This document shows, piece after piece, positions 7,612 through 29,700 of a stretch of 64,000 nt of DNA. The notes beneath the pieces were generated by a model. That model did no database searches. It had not been told where the DNA came from and was given only the letters and a program-made list of their open reading frames with translations. Every line of letters begins with the position of its first letter. Position 1 is the first letter of the stretch. Both the position numbers and the translations under genes were made by a program. Location of the stretch: NCBI GenBank assembly GCA_964016885.1, contig OZ024743.1:178560001-178624000 (forward strand). The letters are read 5' to 3'. Origin of the DNA: Eledone cirrhosa (Eukaryota).

Positions 7612-7785
7612 AATATATTGGTAAACGGAATAGAAAATGCTGACAAATTGTTCACAGTTGAAAAATGGTTTAATTAGGAATAAAAGAGTATTAGTGATTG
7701 TATGGGTTAGTATTCAGTTGTGGTTTTAAGTTTTTAAGTTTTTACCGGTTGCGCATTTCTAAATGCTTTTCAAAAATAATAGATC

Positions 7786-9036
7786 TTGGAGAACAATTAC
7801 TTCGTTTTCAATAACAAACCCTACAGGCAGAAATCTGGGACCGCTATGGGAACGAAAACAGCCCCTACGTATGCCAACCTAGTCATGGGATACCTGGAAA
7901 TCACCCTCTACACTAAAGTCCTAAACAAATTTGGAAACACCTTCCACTTACACATTGAAAGGAACTGGAAGCGATATCTTGATGACTGCTTCATCCTTTG
8001 GCACGAAAACATCGAAAAACTTAAAGAATTTCACACCCTTATAAATGGGCTCAACACAAATATTAACTTCACAATGGAATACAGCCATCAACAACTCCCC
8101 TTCCTCGACATCCTCATTAAGATCCATAACAAAAAAATAGAAACAGACATATACTACAAGCCCACAGACTCCAAGCAATACCTCCCCTTCAACTCTTGCC
8201 ACCCTAGACACGTTAAAATTAATATTCCCTACAACTTAGCCAAGAGAATCTGTACTATAGTCTCCAATAAAAACATCTGCTACTTACGGCTACAAGAACT
8301 AAAGGACACACTCATAGGCAGGGACTACCCTGCATCACTAATTGACAATGGAATCCAACGTGCCCTAAAACTCAGTACCCAGGACCTTAGACACCCTAAA
8401 GTAAATCAACCAAAACTAAAAGCTCTTCCATACATCTCCACACACAACCCCCTCAACAACGAGGCCTTTGACACCATCCTCCAGAACATCCCTGTATTGA
8501 AAAAGGACCATAGAATGAACCAAATTCTACGAACACACGATATCATAAAAAGCAAAAGACAATCCAAGTCAATGAAAAACATCTTAACACATGCCAAAGT
8601 ACTGCCAACCACAACAACGAAACCCACAGTAAAAAAATGCGATAGACCCAACTGTGGCATTTGCATCAACCTAATAGAGGGTTCGGAATTCTATTTCAAA
8701 GATGGACAACGTTTTATAGTAAAACACAATTTCACATGTGCATCGGAAAATTTAATATATGTATTAACTTGTTCAGGTTGTCGAGAACAATACATAGGCC
8801 AGACCAAAAACAGCCTCCGCCAACGCATGACTGTCCATAGATCCCAAATTAAAATACGGGAATACAGGAAAATACCACTGAGTGAACACATTGATACCTG
8901 CGCCGCCCAAAATCATCCCAACTTCAGAATCTTTCCCCTCTACAAATTTAAAGATAATGCCACCCACACCCAGCGCATCAGCAAGGAATCTTACTTCATT
9001 AACAAATACGGACCCCGTCTAAACACTTCTCCCTAA
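7786..9036 (+). CDS. PLE reverse transcriptase (C-terminal half) plus GIY-YIG endonuclease, uninterrupted frame
   Basis: GTAMGTKTAPTYANL, WKRYLDD, LPFLD, YYKPTD...SCHP, CDRPNCGIC linker, LIY...C..C...YIGQT...R...H, E..FI......LN. Confidence 0.92.
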   Translation: MENNYFVFNNKPYRQKSGTAMGTKTAPTYANLVMGYLEITLYTKVLNKFGNTFHLHIERNWKRYLDDCFILWHENIEKLKEFHTLINGLNTNINFTMEYSHQQLPFLDILIKIHNKKIETDIYYKPTDSKQYLPFNSCHPRHVKINIPYNLAKRICTIVSNKNICYLRLQELKDTLIGRDYPASLIDNGIQRALKLSTQDLRHPKVNQPKLKALPYISTHNPLNNEAFDTILQNIPVLKKDHRMNQILRTHDIIKSKRQSKSMKNILTHAKVLPTTTTKPTVKKCDRPNCGICINLIEGSEFYFKDGQRFIVKHNFTCASENLIYVLTCSGCREQYIGQTKNSLRQRMTVHRSQIKIREYRKIPLSEHIDTCAAQNHPNFRIFPLYKFKDNATHTQRISKESYFINKYGPRLNTSP

Positions 9037-9214
9037 GACGAACCCACAACATACACACGTCAACATACATACCTACATCAGCACACATCTCTACCCACAT
9101 ATAGACACAATGACACACGTAAACACACATGCTCTATGGTGCAATACAAAAAAATATATGTGCATATATATGTATGTATATATGTATATATATATATATA
9201 TGTATGTAGTGAAA

Positions 9215-9250
<36 letters not shown>

Positions 9251-9662
9251 ATATATGTGTATATAGTGAATATCATTTCACACCTTTTATTGTTAAGATT
9301 GTTGATGTTCTATTAAGAGAACCGATTTTACTGAAAAAATCGAATAATGTACACCATTTTACCAAGGGGGGAAAAAAATACTGGTCCACCCACACACGCA
9401 CACACACACACACACACATATATACACAGACACATACACACGCGTACATCAACATACAAAGAGACTTATACACACACACACACACACACACGCACTTCTC
9501 CGTATAAGACAAAAGCTGAAAAATATCTTTTGACCTTCGAATGACTCTGCTGTGTGTATGTACGCACACACACACACACACACACACACACTTATCTTAA
9601 TAGCCATTTGACACACATCGCTGGTGGCTATTGTCGCAGCATCGAATACCTTACTACTACTA

Positions 9663-9718
<56 letters not shown>

Positions 9719-10039
9719 TTGTTGTGAAAGAGTCATTTCTCAATCTTGGCGCAAAACCAATTTTTTATCCACATGACCTCTACCGACCAATCAAAATTGT
9801 TTTGACCATAATCTTTGCTGGAGCCACTTTTCTAACATTTTAACATAAAAACAGTCTTGGCGCAAAATCAACTTTTTACATTCACATGACCTCTACCGAC
9901 CAATCAAAATTGTTTTGACCACAAGCATTTTTACAACACAAAAATAACGCTGGAGCCATTTTTTTAACATAAAAACAGGTAGAATTCCCAAAACTAATCA
10001 GATCAGAGCAAACAGCACGGACACTCTATCTCAAAATTA

Positions 10040-10077
10040 TTTTTGAAAAGCATTTAGAAATGCGCAACCGGTAAAAA
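10040..10077 (+). ncRNA. Variant hammerhead-like motif (U3-A8, A13C); mirror copy at 7739-7780 (-)
   Basis: ttt TTGAAAA gcattt-ag-aaatgc GCAA ccgg TA aaa; same layout as 18608-18645. Confidence 0.5.
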
Positions 10078-10262
10078 CTTAAAAACTTAAAACCACAACT
10101 GAATACTAACCCATACAATCACTAATACTCTTTTATTCCTAATTAAACCATTTTTCAACTGTGAACAATTTGTCAGCATTTTCTATTCCGTTTACCAATA
10201 TATAATAACTTGTGTGTTACACCTCTATTCTTTTAACTATATAAATATATATATATATAAAT

Positions 10263-10991: not shown

Positions 10992-11022
10992 AATATATAT
11001 ATATAAATATATATATATAAAT

Positions 11023-11565
11023 ATAAAATATTAAACAAATAATGAATAAACAATTCCTTATATTAAACAAAAAAAGTTCATTATTTAACGATCGTTTCTA
11101 GGATATATATGTGTTAGAATTGGTATGCATATTCAACAGATCTATGTACAAAATTATACAAAATTATACAAATTATCAAGATTAAATATACATACCAAAC
11201 ACATATATACGCCGTCTTCAGAAATAATTATTTCTGAAGACGGCGTATATATGTGTTTGGTATGTATATTTAATCTTGATAATTTGTATAATTTTGTATA
11301 ATTTTGTACATAGATCTGTTGAATATGCATACCAATTCTAACACATATATATCCTAGAAACGATCGTTAAATAATGAACTTTTTTTGTTTAATATAAGGA
11401 ATTGTTTATTCATTATTTGTTTAATATTTTATCTTGACTCTGTATACCGTTTATCTTTCACCGAAAGTGATTTTTCATTACATCTCTTCTTTCCATGATA
11501 TCCGGAATACATTGAGTTCTTCATACGGATTGGACACTACCGTAAACTCTTGGTAGATTTATCTA
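11023..11565 (+). mobile_element. Spacer-less ~410 bp palindrome with two back-to-back HHRs plus tail (family F3)
   Basis: Palindrome 11023-11432 centred at 11227/11228; tail 11433-11565; (TA)n flanks. Confidence 0.8.
11227..11375 (+). ncRNA. Hammerhead ribozyme with ~115-nt stem II; mirror copy at 11080-11228 (-)
   Basis: attattt CTGAAGA c[ggcgtatatatgtgtt...aacacatatatatcct]a GAAA cgatcg TT aaataat. Confidence 0.72.
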
Positions 11566-11566
11566 C

Positions 11567-11609
<43 letters not shown>

Positions 11610-11619
11610 TATATATAAA

Positions 11620-13084
11620 TATATCATAAAACATGTCTATAGAATCACAAGATAAAATATATACTATTTCCTCTCCCAATTAGCATAATTAACTATATAA
11701 AAAATCGAATAGACCAGGCTATACGAATGAGGTTTCTATGAAAGAATCTCCAACAAATAACCAAAACTAGCGCTTCGCGTCGGCTGCATTGGAATATTTA
11801 TCGAATATTTCGACAGCGTAATCGCCTAGATACAGTCAACTAAGCAGAATTGGGTTTAAAATAAACTAGGAGAAAATAGAATACACTTAAATACCTCTAC
11901 CATGGTTTCGTCCGTGTTTTGAGTTATCCAATAATTATGTAATAATTATATGAACTCGAGCGCCGGATTCTTCAGGAAGCTCGCTCATATCTAGACATTA
12001 AATTTTCCAAGACGATCGCGCCAAGAATTCATTTCAAAATGGTTAAAAATCGTGACGTAGTCGCGGTCAATTTGGAAGGGGTGTGTTAGTTGCTTACGAC
12101 TGGTGGCATTTTTGCTAGAAAGCACAGCGCAATACAGCCAAATTTATGGCGCAACCTAGTGGGAGATTATTACATATAAAAGTTTACATATATATATACA
12201 TACACATACATATACGTGTTTTACAACTGGTCACTTTTTGGCTCAATGAAAAATTAATAAATTAAACAATCAGAGCTATATATCATAAAACATGTCTATA
12301 GAATCACAAGATGAAATATATACTATTTCCTCTCCCAATTAGCATAATTAACTATATAAAAAATCGAATAGACCAGGCTATATGAATGAGGCTTCTATGA
12401 AGGAATCTCCAACAAATAACCAAAACTAGCGCTCAACCCACTAGGTTGAGACACAAATTTGGCTGTATTGTGCTGTGCTTTCTAGCAAAAATGCCACCAG
12501 TCGTAAGCAACTACCACACCCCTTCCAACTTGACCGCGACTACGTCACGATTTTTAGCCATTTTGAAATGAATTCTTGGCGCGATCGTTTTGGAAAATTT
12601 AATGTCTAGATATGAGCGAGCTTCCTGAAGAATCCGGCGCTCGAGTTTATATAATTATTACATAATTATTGGATAACTCAAAACACGGACGAAACCATGG
12701 TAGAGGTATTTAAGTGTATTCTATTTTCTCCTAGTATATTTTAAACCTAATTCTGCTTAGTTGACTGTATCTACGCGATTACGCTGTCGAATTATTCGAT
12801 AAATATTCCAATGCGGCCGACGCGAAGCGCTAGTTTTGGTTATTTGTTGGAGATTCCTTCATAGAAGCCTCATTCGTATAGCCTGGTCTATTCGATTTTT
12901 TATATAGTTAATTATGCTAATTGGGAGAGGAAATATTATATATTTTATCTTGTGATTCTATAGACATGTTTTATGATATATAGCTCTGATTGTTTAATTT
13001 ATTAATTTTTCATTGAGCTAAAAAGTGACCAGTTGCAAAACACGTATATGAATGTGTATGTATATATGTAAACTTTTATATGTA
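11620..13084 (+). mobile_element. Non-coding ~659-bp HHR unit in partial tandem plus inverted arrangement (family F4)
   Basis: 11620-11773 is directly repeated at 12279-12432. 12438-13084 is the reverse complement of 11620-12163 plus 12172-12280. No ORF. Confidence 0.82.
12621..12706 (+). ncRNA. Hammerhead ribozyme (F4) with extended stem II; mirror copy at 11894-11979 (-)
   Basis: cttc CTGAAGA atccg...gagt...actc...cggac GAAA ccatgg TA gagg. Confidence 0.78.
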
Positions 13085-13097
13085 TATATAAATATAT

Positions 13098-13180
<83 letters not shown>

Positions 13181-13281
13181 TATATATATTTATATATATA
13201 TATAAAATATATATATATTTATATATTTATATATATATATTTATATATTTATATATATTTATATATTTATATATATATATT

Positions 13282-13342
<61 letters not shown>

Positions 13343-13375
13343 ATTTATATTTATATATATATTTATATTTATATT

Positions 13376-13406
<31 letters not shown>

Positions 13407-13445
13407 ATAAATATATATATATTTATATATATATATATATATATA

Positions 13446-15868
13446 TACGGTATTAAATAAATGGAAACTATATTTATAAAACCATATTTATTTCATTATA
13501 TATATTTCAGGGATATCATATTAAAAATATGTTATGCCTTCTTCAGACAAAATACAATATAAACAGTCTTATAAATAGATAGATTCGACATACCTTTCAA
13601 CTTCGACTTCTATTTGAAAAGTTGATTTGGTAGTGGAAAAAATATTAGGGACAGTTATAAAAAGAAAGAAAGAAAAACGAAGAAAAAGAAGAAATGCATG
13701 CAACTAAATAGAGAGAGATAGATATAGAGAGATAGATAGAGAGAAGAAATTCATGTAAAGAAACAGAGAGAGATATATAGAGAGAGGAAAAAAACACAGA
13801 GGGAAATAGATAGAGAGAGAGAGAGAGAAGAGAGGAGAGAGAGAGAGAGAGAGAAAATATAGAGAGATAGATATAGATAGAGATAGAGAGAAAGAAAATA
13901 GGTAGTTGTGCACCAGTTGAATGACGTATCAATGATATATTTATTTATTTATTTATTTATTTAGCTCTAGTATTAATGTAGAGAGAGATATATGTGGTTA
14001 AGAGAGAAAACAGCCGTTACATAGAGAGAAAAGAAAAATATCCAGACAAAAACGAGGCAGATTTAAATCACTATGTATCATCAATGTAAAAAATATCAAT
14101 TCGTATAAAACAGGCATTATAATGTAAATATCAGTATTCATGAATGAGACACGTATCAATAATGTGTGAAAAATAATGATCATATGTCTAGTTTAAAATT
14201 CATAGGTTTATATTAGAGTTGAGATAAAATAGAAGGTTATCCCAGATTTTATACTATATACATCCATGTGAATTTACGTGATCAGCTCTGCAAATTCCTA
14301 TTCACACGAAAACATTCTCATTGTGCTATAAAAATTCTAGTATACATATATGTGTATATACACACAAATATATATAGAGTCTACATTAATTTTAACAATA
14401 CTATTCATGTCTTTACTCTACATGATTATCGTTCAAGCATAAATAGAGAACAGATATCAATATATCAATAAAAATATCAGAAACAAAAAGTAAATAAAAA
14501 ACAAAAAATCAAAAAATACAAAAAAATATTAAAAATAAAAATAAAAATATTAAAAATATTAAAAATATTAAAATAAAAATGAAACATAGTATGCCCCGCA
14601 AATCAACCACAGAGATCAACCCTTCAAAGTTAATTGACAATATATTGCCAAGTTCGTTATAAGCATCAGAATCAAAATTATTTGATTTTTGGATTTTGGG
14701 ATTTTTGGATTTTTGGATTTTTTGATTTTTTGTTTTTTATTTACTTTTTGTTTCTGATATTTTTATTGATATATTGATATCTGTTCTCTATTTATGCTTG
14801 AACGATAATCATGTAGAGTAAAGACATGAATAGTATTGTTAAAATTAATGTAGACTCTATATATATTTGTGTGTATATACACATATATGTATACTAGAAT
14901 TTTTATAGCACAATGAGAATGTTTTCGTGTGAAATAGGAATTTGCAGAGCTGATCACGTAAATTCACATGGATGTATATAGTATAAAATCTGGGATAACC
15001 TTTTATTTTATCTCAACTCTAATATAAACCTATGAATTTTAAACTAGACATATGATCATTATTTTTCACACATTATTGATACGTGTCTCATTCATGAATA
15101 CTGATATTTACATTATAATGCCTGTTTTATACGAATTGATATTTTTTACATTGATGATACATAGTGATTTAAATCTGCCTCGTTTTTGTCTGGATATTTT
15201 TCTTTTCTCTCTATGTAACGGCTGTTTTCTCTCTTAACCACATATATCTCTCTCTACATTAATACTAGAGCTAAATAAATAAATAAATATATCATTGATA
15301 CGTCATTCAACTGGTGCACAACTACCTATTTTCTTTCTCTCTATCTCTATCTATATCTATCTCTCTATATTTTCTCTCTCTCTCTCTCCTCTCTTTTCTT
15401 TCTCTCTCTCTCTATCTATCTCCCTCTGTGTTTTTTACCTCTCTCTATATATCTCTCTCTGTTTCTTTACATGAATTTCTTCTCTCTATCTATCTCTCTA
15501 TATCTATCTATCTCTATTTAGTTGCATGCATTTCTTCTTTTTCTTCGTTTTTCTTTCTTTCTTTTTATAACTGTCCCTAATATTTTTTCCACTACCAAAT
15601 CAACTTTTCAAATAGAAGTCGAAGTTGAAAGGTATGTCGAATCTATCTATTTATAAGACTGTTTATATTGTATTTTGTTTGAAGAAGGCATAACATATTT
15701 TTAATATGATATCCCTGAAATATATATAATGAAATAAATATGGTTTTATAAATATAGTTTCCATTTATTTAATACCGTAAATATACTCCAAATACTTGTT
15801 GAGTGCTTTTATATCAGTTATAAATATTTACTCGTTGTTAACCCAACAATTTAAATAAAACTTTGCAT
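13446..15868 (+). mobile_element. Non-coding fold-back HHR element, family F2
   Basis: Arms ~13446-14515 and ~14715-15779 are near-identical inverted copies; tail 15780-15868; (TA)n flanks. Confidence 0.85.
13489..13554 (-). ncRNA. Hammerhead ribozyme (F2); + strand mirror 15671-15736 carries C3U
   Basis: Minus strand: uauuuugu CUGAAGA aggcauaac...gauaucccu GAAA uauaua UA augaaaua. The right arm reads TTGAAGA. Confidence 0.72.
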
Positions 15869-15869
15869 A

Positions 15870-15934
<65 letters not shown>

Positions 15935-26789: not shown

Positions 26790-29700
26790 TTCTTTTTATT
26801 TGCCACCAGGGCATCAAAAGTGGGACAAGTACAATGGGGGGGGGGTTACATAGCAAGGCGTCCTCAATATGGAGGAGGCAATAACAAAGTATAAAAATAA
26901 AATAAAATATAACAAAATAAATTTTATAACAAAATCCTCCATAGGGAGGAGGTGCCTTGGGGGGTCTCACACACCCCCGAAAAAAAGTGTGCAACCCTTC
27001 TCCTCAGGAGCACAGAGAGGGGGTGCTCCCTTGATCTTTCCTCTTCCTCACCTATAGTCTGATGTAGAGTGAAGGCCCATTTACACGGGCCATTCTCGCC
27101 ACTTTCACCTATCTTTCATAGAAACGGCTGGGGTGCAGCACCTCTCTCTCCATCCTGATCCTTCTTCCGAAATTATATCGGAAGATACGGACCAGTTGTT
27201 GGCCAGAGAGAAAGGTGTCTGACCTCAGTCCTTTCAGACGCGTCCACCATACAACCTCTTTCGCCATGGCTATTACGCACAGAAACACCGCCTCTCCTTC
27301 GTTTTTGAAGAGGGGAGGCGGCTTGATCGTTACAATAGACTCGGTGGTCAACCGGATCGGTCCCACCCTTGACAGGAGTTGTTCGACATAGCCCCACTAA
27401 TCGGCAATGCCCGAGCAGTGTACCAGTGCGTGTGCAACGGTTTCCTCGTTGCACACGCATCTGGGACAGATCTTTTTCGAGGGGTCCCTACCCGGGCGCC
27501 CGTGTCTGTAGAGCCTTTCTCGAACGGACAGAGCCCTTTGGTAGCACTGCCAGGCCAGGGACCTTTGGAAGTTATCAATGGGTCCCGGGCTGAATGTCCT
27601 ACCGAACAGGTTGACCAGTTCGTCTTCCTCCATACCTAGGGCTTCTCGGAGGGCGTCGTCGCACCTACTAACCACCAGACCTCTATAGAATGACGAGGTG
27701 GATTCTCCACTGACAGCCGGATCCGCCTGCCAGAGAGCCGTGAGCGCCTGGGCACACTCGGTGTGCCAGGCGCCCAGTTTCCTCGGTCTTTGCTTGACCC
27801 AGGATTGCAGCTCGGTGAGTGAGACGAGTCTGGGAAAGGCTCGCCTCACAAACAGGGCCCACACCGGTTGACCGGTGAGGAATACCTGGAGGTGCCGTAG
27901 CCTTAATGCGTGTTTACGTATCATTAGTCACGGCATCCCCAGCCCTCTTTTCGAAGGGTGTTGACAGCAGATGGATCTCCTCACCATAGGAGCCCGCTTA
28001 TTCCAAAGGAATTGGAAGAGTGCGCGCTCCATTTTGGCGAGCGTTTCCCTTGGGCAAGGCACAACGGCCAGGCGGTAGTAGATGACGGACGCTATATAAG
28101 TGTTCGCCACCTCCGCCCGACCTTTCAGGGACAGTTTGCACTCAGCCCACTTCTGGGTCAGTGCAAACACCCTGTTCGTTACCTCACCCCAGTTCTTCTC
28201 CACCTGGAGGTCTGGTCCGAACCAGACCCCGAGCAACTTTACCGGACCCTCCGTCCAGCGCCCGACGACGCCATCGGAGGGCATCGATCTGCCCCTCCAC
28301 GTGCCGAGTTGCAGACCGATCGACTTGTCCCGGTTCAGCTTAGCCCCTGTAAACCTTTCGTACTCCTCCAGTAAGGTGCCGATCGCCCCGATTTCCGAGG
28401 CCGTCGACACCATTACTGTTACGTCATCGGCGTAGGCTGACACCGCTTTCCGCAATCCCGATTCCAACGGGATGCCCTGCAACAACTCCAACTTCCGCAG
28501 CAGTGGCTCTAGAGTCATTACATACAGAAGGGAGGAGAGAGGGCACCCTTGTCGAATGGACCGCGCGATTTCGAACGGGTCCGAAGCCTGCCGCCGCTAG
28601 CACCGCATCCAGGTAAACATGGTCGACCCTATCGAACGCCTTAGATTGATCCAAGTTGATCAGGGCCCCACCAAAGCCGGGTTCGTTCCCAAACCTCTCT
28701 ATGATGTATCGCATGAGGTGGAGGTTGTCGTGGATGGACTTGGACGGGATAGCACATGTCTGCGCATCTCCCAGCAGGTTGCCCACGACAAGCGCCAACC
28801 TCTTTGCTAGCACCTTGGCCAAAATCTGTAACTCTGTATTTAGCAGAGTTATGGGCCTGACATTATTTATATCGACCCCCTTGTTCTCGTCCTTCTTCAC
28901 TAGCGTGACTACGCCCTTGGTCACAGCACAGGGAATTCTCCCGTTCTGTTGCCAGTTGCAGTAGACCGCCTCGAGGAGATTGGGGAACAAGTCCGGCATA
29001 ACTAGATACAGTTCGTATGGAAGACCATCGAGACCCGGAGATTTGCGTTTGCCGCATTGGCTTAGCACGTCCTCTATCTCAGCGGCTGAAATCGGCTCCT
29101 CGCAGGACTTCGCCTCCCTGTCCGAGAGAGGCAGCAGGCCGTCGAGGTATGGACCGAAGTCCACATCCCCAACCGGCTCCCCGCTCCTTCCGAACAATCC
29201 GGCAAAGTGCTTTTGAAAAGCCTCGCACATCTGCTTAGGTTCAAGGATCACCCGTCCATCCTGGTCTCGCAAAGACCGGATAGTGGATTTGCTCCCTCTT
29301 TTGGCTTCTGTCACGCGGGCCCAGCTAACAGCTTTGGTCCCCTCGTTTCCCAGAGCACGTATTTTGCTTCGGACGATGCAGCCTTCGTGCTTCGCGTCGA
29401 AGAACTGGCCCAGGGCCGTTCTCGACGCTAGCACTCTGGCCACGTCGCCGCTTCTAATTGCCTCTTCTACACTATCTAGCAGCTCCCTTTCCTTCCTATT
29501 TCTATTTGAGGCTAACTCCTTACTAAATTCTATAGACTACTCTAATCTCTCTTTTGAGAGATCCCCACCACCTGCTGTTGACGATGGCGCCCGTCAACCG
29601 CTCCTTAACTAAAGTGCTAATCCGGTTCCTGTAAGCCTTACTTGCCGGTAAGGACAAGTTGAGCTTCCAGTAACCGGGCTCCTGTCTATACGTTCTGTCA

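What the first reader, a model, noticed from the sequence alone, without database searches (positions are those of the whole stretch)
11620..13084. 659-nt HHR monomer with a head-to-tail junction: retrozyme or circular-RNA-like
The right arm (12438-13084) is almost exactly one unit. Read on the minus strand, the left part (12432 to 11620) runs from the unit's 3' end through a junction (...ttttatatgta-ataatct-cccactagg..., ~12160-12180) back into the unit's 5' start, giving a 659-bp direct-repeat period. There is one HHR per unit, no ORF, and more CpG than the flanks. Inference: copied from a multimeric or circular RNA; cleavage at successive HHRs would release a ~659-nt monomer that could circularise.
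Basis: partly seen in the sequence, partly recalled or inferred. Interest (0 to 1): 0.75.

Follow-up and report, generated by a model that had tools for sequence, protein, structure and literature searches.

The report
Two-armed hammerhead retrozyme with Penelope ends
This is one copy of a several-hundred-copy, non-coding 659-base jumping repeat with a predicted self-cutting RNA motif; its mirror-image insertions always pair two different fixed end points, likely the footprint of a Penelope-type enzyme copying one RNA onto both sides of a DNA break, while the proposed RNA circle remains untested.

Summary
The 659-nt period, one type I hammerhead (HHR) per unit, lack of an ORF and CpG excess are real. 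The boundaries are misread: the 'junction' at 12160-12180 is ordinary internal unit sequence, and this locus has only one HHR per strand, so it cannot release a monomer. The element is a young, dispersed non-coding family (272 exact HHR motifs) inserted in (TA)n. Copies have scattered 5' ends and two fixed 3' ends 103 nt apart (E1, E2). All 34 scoreable head-to-head insertions, and 8 of 8 in a 72%-identical sister family, pair E1 with E2. That is the Penelope-like element (PLE) 'tail' signature of two reverse-transcription starts. HHR helices covary across subfamilies, and a conserved ~180-nt sense-strand hairpin precedes E1. Both arms of an insertion share haplotypes. Best reading: a non-LTR retrozyme mobilised in trans by a PLE protein. 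Circular versus uncut read-through template is unresolved: junctions at the cut site are clean, but 5' ends are enriched near a promoter-like motif. No RNA data; no coding partner found among three active PLE families. Earlier scan notes report the same layout for other families, here and in other genomes.

The parts
11619..12433 (-). Left arm, 815 nt (1.24 units): unit 390 to 659, then 1 to 545; 5'-truncated; 3' end at fixed site E1, running into (TA)n
   Evidence: site L084
12437..13084 (+). Right arm, about 650 nt: unit 1 to 649/652; 5'-truncated; 3' end at fixed site E2, running into (TA)n
12434..12436 (.). Head-to-head join of the two truncated 5' ends, with a 3-nt filler
12620..12707 (+). 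Type I hammerhead fold: helix I 4-5 bp, extended helix II with A10.1-C11.1 mismatch, 2-bp helix III with palindromic loop (dimer type); predicted cut after 12702
   Evidence: fold predicted, cleavage untested
11893..11980 (-). Second copy of the hammerhead, on the opposite strand; predicted cut after 11898
12746..12924 (+). Conserved long hairpin between HHR and E1 (44 consensus pairs; basal extension to about 12716-12945 in single-sequence folds); candidate protein-binding element (inferred)
12983..13084 (+). 103-nt 'tail' between E1 (unit 546 = 12982) and E2 (unit 649); present at the end of this arm only
12171..12277 (-). Internal copy of the tail segment within the left arm
12164..12170 (-).
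   Evidence: tandem arrays with period 659
12541..12583 (+). Zone of excess 5' ends (unit 105-135) with conserved GCCATTTT (12557-12564) and TTGGCGCG (12576-12583); candidate promoter or start region (motif identity as YY1-like and E2F-like is recalled, not tested)
11566..11618 (.). (TA)n target tract, left
13085..13447 (.). (TA)n target tract, right; no target duplication can be discerned

Best explanation
The locus is a two-armed insertion of a non-coding 659-nt hammerhead repeat family, likely a non-LTR retrozyme copied in trans by the reverse transcriptase/GIY-YIG protein of a Penelope-like element. Inferred steps: source arrays are transcribed, probably from a promoter in each unit. The PLE protein binds the RNA, perhaps at the conserved hairpin, and cuts both strands of a (TA)n tract. 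One DNA end primes reverse transcription at E1 (unit 546) and the other at E2 (unit 649). Each cDNA stops at a variable point, and the two truncated ends are joined head to head. One RNA species, or one source locus, serves both arms. More-than-unit arms come from an HHR-cut, religated circle or from an uncut read-through multimer; I put these at about 50:50, and both may be used. Shown: copy structure, fixed ends, pairing rule, haplotype sharing, helix covariation. Not shown: cleavage, any RNA, the circle, the partner enzyme.
For: Fixed ends: 92 of 114 arm ends at 78 discovery sites and 71 of 90 at 57 new sites picked only by a 23-nt HHR motif fall at E1 or E2. Pairing: 20 of 20 scoreable pairs (of 28 opposed pairs) and 14 of 14 (of 25) are E1+E2, none like-with-like; chance at most 0.5^34 by hand. 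Two apparent exceptions inspected (L288, L126) carry an E1 terminus on one arm. Single arms at motif-picked sites end at E1 24 times and at E2 3 times. Sister family B (664 nt, 72% identical, collinear) uses the same two sites, with 8 clean mixed pairs, 2 eroded and none alike among 25 loci. PMC11167929 shows a purified PLE protein nicking and extending both strands of AT-rich DNA and starting at two internal RNA sites that define the tail. PMC8557442 describes inverted 5'-truncated copies, a one-sided tail and (TA)n targeting. HHR helices I and II have double-sided changes, and the whole structure pairs in 94.8% of 867 cells against 36-45% when slid. The hairpin has 141 G-U against 3 A-C cells on the HHR strand. 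Common variants agree within an arm in 142 of 157 comparisons and between opposite arms in 89 of 105, against 24.5% between sites. At least three PLE families with intact, 97-100% identical RT-EN frames exist in this genome.
Against: No coding PLE shares sequence with the unit: 0 of 3 families, 61 loci, so the partner is unidentified. The tail is 103 nt, against 30-40 nt in the papers read. The young families have lost the canonical G10.1-C11.1 pair (A-C in family A, A-A in B; G-C in 5 of 16 aligned rows), so cleavage may be weak. The preprint found cleavage in only 1 of 9 tested retrozyme dimers, and PMC11167929 found HHR cleavage dispensable in vitro. 5' ends are enriched at unit 105-135 (12 against 5.0 expected, P 0.006, zone chosen after looking; 8 against 3.5, P 0.03 in the other set), which fits a linear transcript start. 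Long arrays show blocks of shared variants from local duplication or conversion, so array length does not measure rounds of copying. 15 of 157 within-arm comparisons disagree at common variants. The covariation controls are affected by relatedness and by the structure having been derived from these rows.
Confidence: 0.8

Rival explanations
1. Same PLE-driven element, but the template is always an uncut linear read-through transcript of a genomic array. The hammerhead is weak or vestigial, no circle is involved, and arrays are regenerated by local unequal exchange. (A sub-case of the best explanation; the number is its share.)
For: 5' end excess at unit 105-135 beside a conserved promoter-like motif. 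Non-canonical 10.1-11.1 pair. Block-wise variants in long arrays. Homogeneous 3-4-unit arrays exist for several haplotypes and could serve as sources. [quoted passage not shown]
Against: 41 of 55 arms pass the zone, the ends are spread over 30 nt and share no extra G. The HHR core and helices are kept across subfamilies about 70% alike. Only 7 of 57 sites hold two or more HHRs in one arm, yet several haplotypes each have internally uniform multimers, which is simplest with a one-unit template.
Confidence: 0.4
2. The copies are truncated terminal repeats (pLTRs) of an autonomous coding PLE that I did not find.
For: The layout, HHR type and tail are those of PLE ends. Only three of an unknown number of PLE families were tested; the protein searches had tens of thousands of unscored candidates.
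Against: Units join head to tail with no ORF between them at periods 659 and 664. The whole unit is collinear between families 72% alike. PLE-protein matches near sampled copies lay outside the arms, in separate insertions where I looked; I did not inspect each one.
Confidence: 0.1
3. The palindrome and tandem structure arose at DNA level (fold-back, slippage or assembly error in TA-rich sequence), without an RNA step.
For: The region is full of microsatellites and palindromes. Local duplication is visible in long arrays.
Against: The arms differ by 3%. The same two end sites and the one-of-each rule recur on many contigs and in two families. Strand-specific G-U pairing points to selection on RNA. 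Contigs of an independent public sample show ends at E1 running into TA (table 7).
Confidence: 0.03
4. Classical LINE-type twin priming on one linear RNA by a non-PLE enzyme.
For: Head-to-head arms joined by short microhomologies or fillers. LINE-type elements with APE and RT domains are present in the window.
Against: The arms overlap in sequence and have unrelated lengths. There is no poly(A) and no 3'-terminal priming. Both starts are fixed and internal. Twin-priming expectations here are recalled, not read.
Confidence: 0.05

Closest known systems
Metazoan non-LTR retrozymes (Cervera and de la Pena 2020, PMC7229834, parts 2-4 of 6 read; Li, Clavereau and Pollet 2026, bioRxiv 10.64898/2026.07.22.740005, parts 1-3 of 5 read)
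   Same: Non-coding tandem units, one type I HHR each, low GC, dispersed monomers to multimers, PLEs present in the same genome. 659 nt lies within the 51-972 bp range of the preprint. A mismatch at the base of helix II is also seen in axolotl HHR_Amex2, which cleaves as a dimer.
   Different: Longer than the 170-400-nt invertebrate circles. Two-armed head-to-head insertions with two fixed ends and (TA)n targeting are not described in the parts read. No discernible TSD. No RNA or circle shown. No homologous pLTR found.
Canonical EN+ Penelope-like elements and their tail (PMC11167929, parts 1-2 of 4 read; PMC8557442, passages; PMC4209133, passages)
   Same: Inverted 5'-truncated arm, tail at one end only, internal fixed starts downstream of an HHR, AT-rich or (TA)n targets, short palindromic helix III.
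   Different: No ORF. Tail 103 nt rather than 30-40 nt. A strict one-start-per-arm rule is not stated in the passages read; the in vitro work saw no difference in start site between strands.
Non-autonomous Chlamys PLEs such as MRC1 (PMC8557442, passage)
   Same: Non-coding, multicopy head-to-tail insertions in PLE style.
   Different: Those generally share 3' sequence with an autonomous family and most Chlamys lack HHRs; here there is an HHR and no shared sequence was found.

Membership tests
Non-LTR retrozyme | Tandem head-to-tail units | tested here: met
   Period 659 in arrays of up to about 3.6 units; sister family about 9 units
Non-LTR retrozyme | Type I HHR in each unit | tested here: met
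   Pattern, covariation and fold; not found by Rfam gathering thresholds; 10.1-11.1 pair non-canonical
Non-LTR retrozyme | No coding capacity | tested here: met
   LTR, PBS and PPT were not looked for with a dedicated test
Non-LTR retrozyme | Two or more consecutive HHR units (criterion for 'active' in the preprint) | tested here: met
   Met by the family (7 of 57 sites); not met by this locus
Non-LTR retrozyme | Self-cleavage and expression as linear and circular monomer RNA | not testable with these tools
   No RNA holder listed
Non-LTR retrozyme | Target-site duplication, when present | tested here: inconclusive
   Both flanks are (TA)n
Autonomous Penelope-like element | ORF with RT and GIY-YIG endonuclease | tested here: not met
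Penelope-type insertion footprint | Inverted 5'-truncated arm and tail at one end only, from two fixed starts | tested here: met
   34 of 34 scoreable pairs, plus 8 of 8 in family B
Penelope-type insertion footprint | AT-rich or microsatellite target | tested here: met
   E1 and E2 ends run into (TA)n
Non-autonomous derivative of a specific PLE | Sequence homology to the pLTR of a coding family | tested here: inconclusive
   None in 3 families, 61 loci; other families untested

The most novel reading that the evidence does not exclude
A dimeric Penelope protein loads one circular, ribozyme-made 659-nt RNA and copies it from both ends of a staggered break, one subunit starting at E1 and the other at E2. 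The conserved 180-nt hairpin would be a structure-only recruitment signal that lets an old non-coding RNA lineage, with no sequence likeness to its helper, hijack the enzyme. The 34-of-34 rule would then be a genomic record of asymmetric two-subunit priming, and this short RNA a ready minimal substrate for PLE biochemistry.
Probability: 0.3. Interest if true: 0.75.

Novelty: new variant of a known kind. Interest (0 to 1): 0.5.

Why it matters
The papers read propose, but do not show, that animal retrozymes are mobilised by Penelope-like elements through circular RNA. This family gives genomic evidence for the first half: its insertions carry the PLE two-start signature without exception in the scoreable sample. 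It adds a rule, one start site per arm, that bears on the unsolved origin of PLE inverted and tailed structures. It also names exact, cheap tests: two predicted cDNA start positions, one hairpin and one cut site. It does not establish the circle. Earlier, unchecked scan notes describe the same layout for other repeat families, so the phenomenon looks general rather than peculiar to this locus.

Tried and rejected
Rfam scan of the window: no match at gathering thresholds. Sequencing runs: no RNA holder listed; the three runs laid are contigs of unknown kind from one sample and say nothing on expression. Template jumping on linear HHR-cut monomers: no pile-up of 5' ends at the cut (4 against 2.4 expected; 1 against 0.4); 90 of 99 passes were exact and the rest showed substitutions; 2 of 69 were flagged for an indel, in a nearby T-run. 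'One round of a circle' arm lengths: the excess of 5' ends at unit 451-565 (28 against 13.8) occurs in first and later passes and overlaps AT-rich microhomologies, so it is not diagnostic. RNA-editing scars: A>G 0.30 against T>C 0.33 per base, no excess. Whole-circle stability: z -1.96 for family A, about the same as its antisense (-1.93), and -4.55 for B, 30 shuffles each; not decisive. The isolated HHR segment is not unusually stable (z -0.59); the active fold lies 1.4 kcal/mol above the minimum. Partner search: the 784-, 775- and 714-aa PLE families gave no significant match beyond separate copies of the repeat itself. The short-query search returned only 31 candidates and could not serve as an unbiased sample. 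Literature searches listed no paper whose title or abstract start describes two-armed retrozyme insertions; PMC13282606 (passages) does not mention ribozymes. Supplements were not read, and those of the preprint are closed; they may hold related families.

Full report
1. Observation. The stretch 11619-13084 lies between two (TA)n tracts. Self-comparison gives inverted arms of 545 nt (96.9%) and 263 nt (96.2%) and a 156-nt direct repeat at spacing 659. I number the 659-nt unit from window 12437 (U1). The left arm, on the minus strand, runs U390-659 and U1-545 (815 nt). The right arm runs U1-649/652. Their 5' ends meet at 12434-12436. Each arm holds one hammerhead motif, on opposite strands. There is no ORF, and CpG observed/expected is 1.30 against 0.62-0.69 in the flanks. 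Rfam finds nothing at gathering level.

2. The family. The host genome G000 is 3.0 Gb. A 23-nt HHR motif occurs 272 times exactly, the reversed control 0 times. 56 of 78 well-matching units carry it exactly, so several hundred HHR-bearing units exist, plus shorter copies. Units differ from the family majority by 1.4% on average (131 units), and CpG sites mutate little faster than other G/C (2.5% against 2.05%). A sister family B (664 nt, 72% identical, collinear) and older subfamilies down to about 67-70% identity exist.

3. Ends. At 78 discovery sites, 54 arm ends fall at E1 (U543-546), 38 at E2 (U646-652) and 22 elsewhere. Of 28 head-to-head pairs, 20 have both ends at E1 or E2 and all 20 are mixed. 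That set is biased because the first query ended at E2. I therefore took 57 new sites chosen only by the HHR motif, in contig order from the first 100 of the 272 listed: 51 ends at E1, 20 at E2, 19 elsewhere; 25 opposed pairs, 14 scoreable, all mixed; single arms end at E1 24 times and at E2 3 times. Two pairs with both ends 'elsewhere' were inspected: each has an E1 terminus spliced onto the tail in one arm; the other arm reaches E2 after an expanded microsatellite (L288) or ends within the tail (L126). The other unscoreable pairs were not inspected one by one. Family B ends at B553 and B654 and gives 8 clean mixed pairs and 2 eroded ones in 25 loci. 5' ends are scattered.

4. Comparison with PLE mechanism. 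PMC8557442 (passages) describes PLE insertions as partial tandems with an inverted 5'-truncated copy, a 30-40-bp tail at one end, and a (TA)n preference in some clades. PMC11167929 (main text) shows a purified PLE protein, predicted to be a dimer, cutting and extending both strands of AT-rich DNA and starting at two internal RNA sites whose interval is the tail; HHR cleavage was not required. The E1-E2 interval here is the same kind of thing at 103 nt. Three neighbours in the window show the same one-sided tail, including a coding PLE with a tail of about 35 nt.

5. RNA structure. Across 16 subfamily representatives the HHR helices I and II show changes on both sides. The structure of 55 pairs is paired in 94.8% of 867 cells, 0 of 500 shuffles reach this, and slid versions give 36-45%; these controls are lenient for related rows and a derived structure. 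The 10.1-11.1 pair is G-C in only 5 rows, and A-C or A-A in the young families. Helix III is 2 bp with a palindromic loop, and two copies form an 8-bp duplex of -11.2 kcal/mol, the dimer-dependent type of PMC4209133 (passages). Downstream of the cut a long hairpin (12746-12924) is predicted in both families and in the alignment. It holds 141 G-U cells and 3 A-C cells on the HHR strand, so it pairs better as sense RNA (672 of 700) than as antisense (534 of 700). Its role as a protein-binding site is inference.

6. Template. Arms cross the HHR cut 168 times without junction scars, and 5' ends do not pile up there. The template is therefore not a free linear monomer; it is a ligated circle or an uncut multimer. 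Units of one insertion share haplotypes: common variants agree in 142 of 157 comparisons within an arm, 89 of 105 between opposite arms and 24.5% between sites; rare variants agree in 25 of 168 between opposite arms against 0.6% between sites. Several haplotypes each have uniform multimers. This fits a one-unit template, but a uniform source array or later gene conversion would give the same. Against a pure circle: 5' ends are 2.3-fold enriched at U105-135, beside a conserved GCCATTTT, although 41 of 55 arms pass; and long arrays show block-wise variants from local exchange. I leave circle and read-through at about even odds. This locus cannot be a source of monomers; 7 of 57 sites could.

7. 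Partner. The window holds a truncated PLE (RT plus GIY-YIG, 7783-9036) of a family with many near-identical 784-aa frames. Two more active families have 775- and 714-aa frames. None shares sequence with units A or B. The helper is unidentified.

8. Novelty. Non-LTR retrozymes and the proposal of PLE mobilisation are in print (PMC7229834; bioRxiv 10.64898/2026.07.22.740005). In the parts read and in searches I found no description of two-armed, two-start retrozyme insertions; most subscription papers and the supplements were not seen. Earlier scan notes, unchecked, report this layout for other families in this and other genomes; a look-up by sequence found no note on this family. My reading was recorded before I opened them. 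Those notes call the host a cephalopod; I did not test that.

9. Verdict. A real element, and a new variant of a known kind: a retrozyme-type non-coding family with a clear PLE insertion footprint. The circle is plausible but unproven. Interest 0.5.

Noticed in passing
window 7613-10238: 5'-truncated coding PLE (RT + GIY-YIG with a CxxxxCxxC linker, Neptune-like by that motif), with a 168-nt inverted arm and a tail of about 35 nt. The family is very young, with many 99-100% identical copies.
   Followed up: partly
L121 (G000:C5) and L222-L223 (G000:C26): Two active PLE families each have a 455- or 496-aa open frame overlapping the start of the 784- or 775-aa RT-EN frame in another phase, rather than a single ORF. 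Intron, frameshift or true two-ORF layout was not resolved.
   Followed up: no
window 11020-11565: Another two-armed element: a 416-nt palindrome (99.5%) with a one-sided extension of about 130 nt and an HHR-like motif with a palindromic helix III, seen by eye; a related motif lies at 40870.
   Followed up: partly
window 13440-15870: A third two-armed element (arms of about 1,080 nt, 98%) with an HHR motif at 13546 (-) and a one-sided extension of about 80 nt.
   Followed up: partly
window, whole: 17 type I HHR-like motifs of several sequence families in 64 kb, none detected by Rfam gathering thresholds.
   Followed up: no
G000:C4:193999090-194005250 (L224): Sister family B array of about 9 units of 664 nt, with block-wise shared variants.
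   Followed up: partly
L288 and L126: Arms whose terminus is the last 12-17 nt of E1 joined directly to tail sequence further downstream, as if priming began at E1 and then jumped.
   Followed up: partly
L122:5746-6726: A family A two-armed copy met by chance in a stretch fetched for another purpose, with a 98-nt insertion inside HHR helix II.
   Followed up: no
window 27400-29536 and 46748-50020: Two broken LINE-type elements (RT and zf-RVT in both, APE endonuclease in the second).
   Followed up: no
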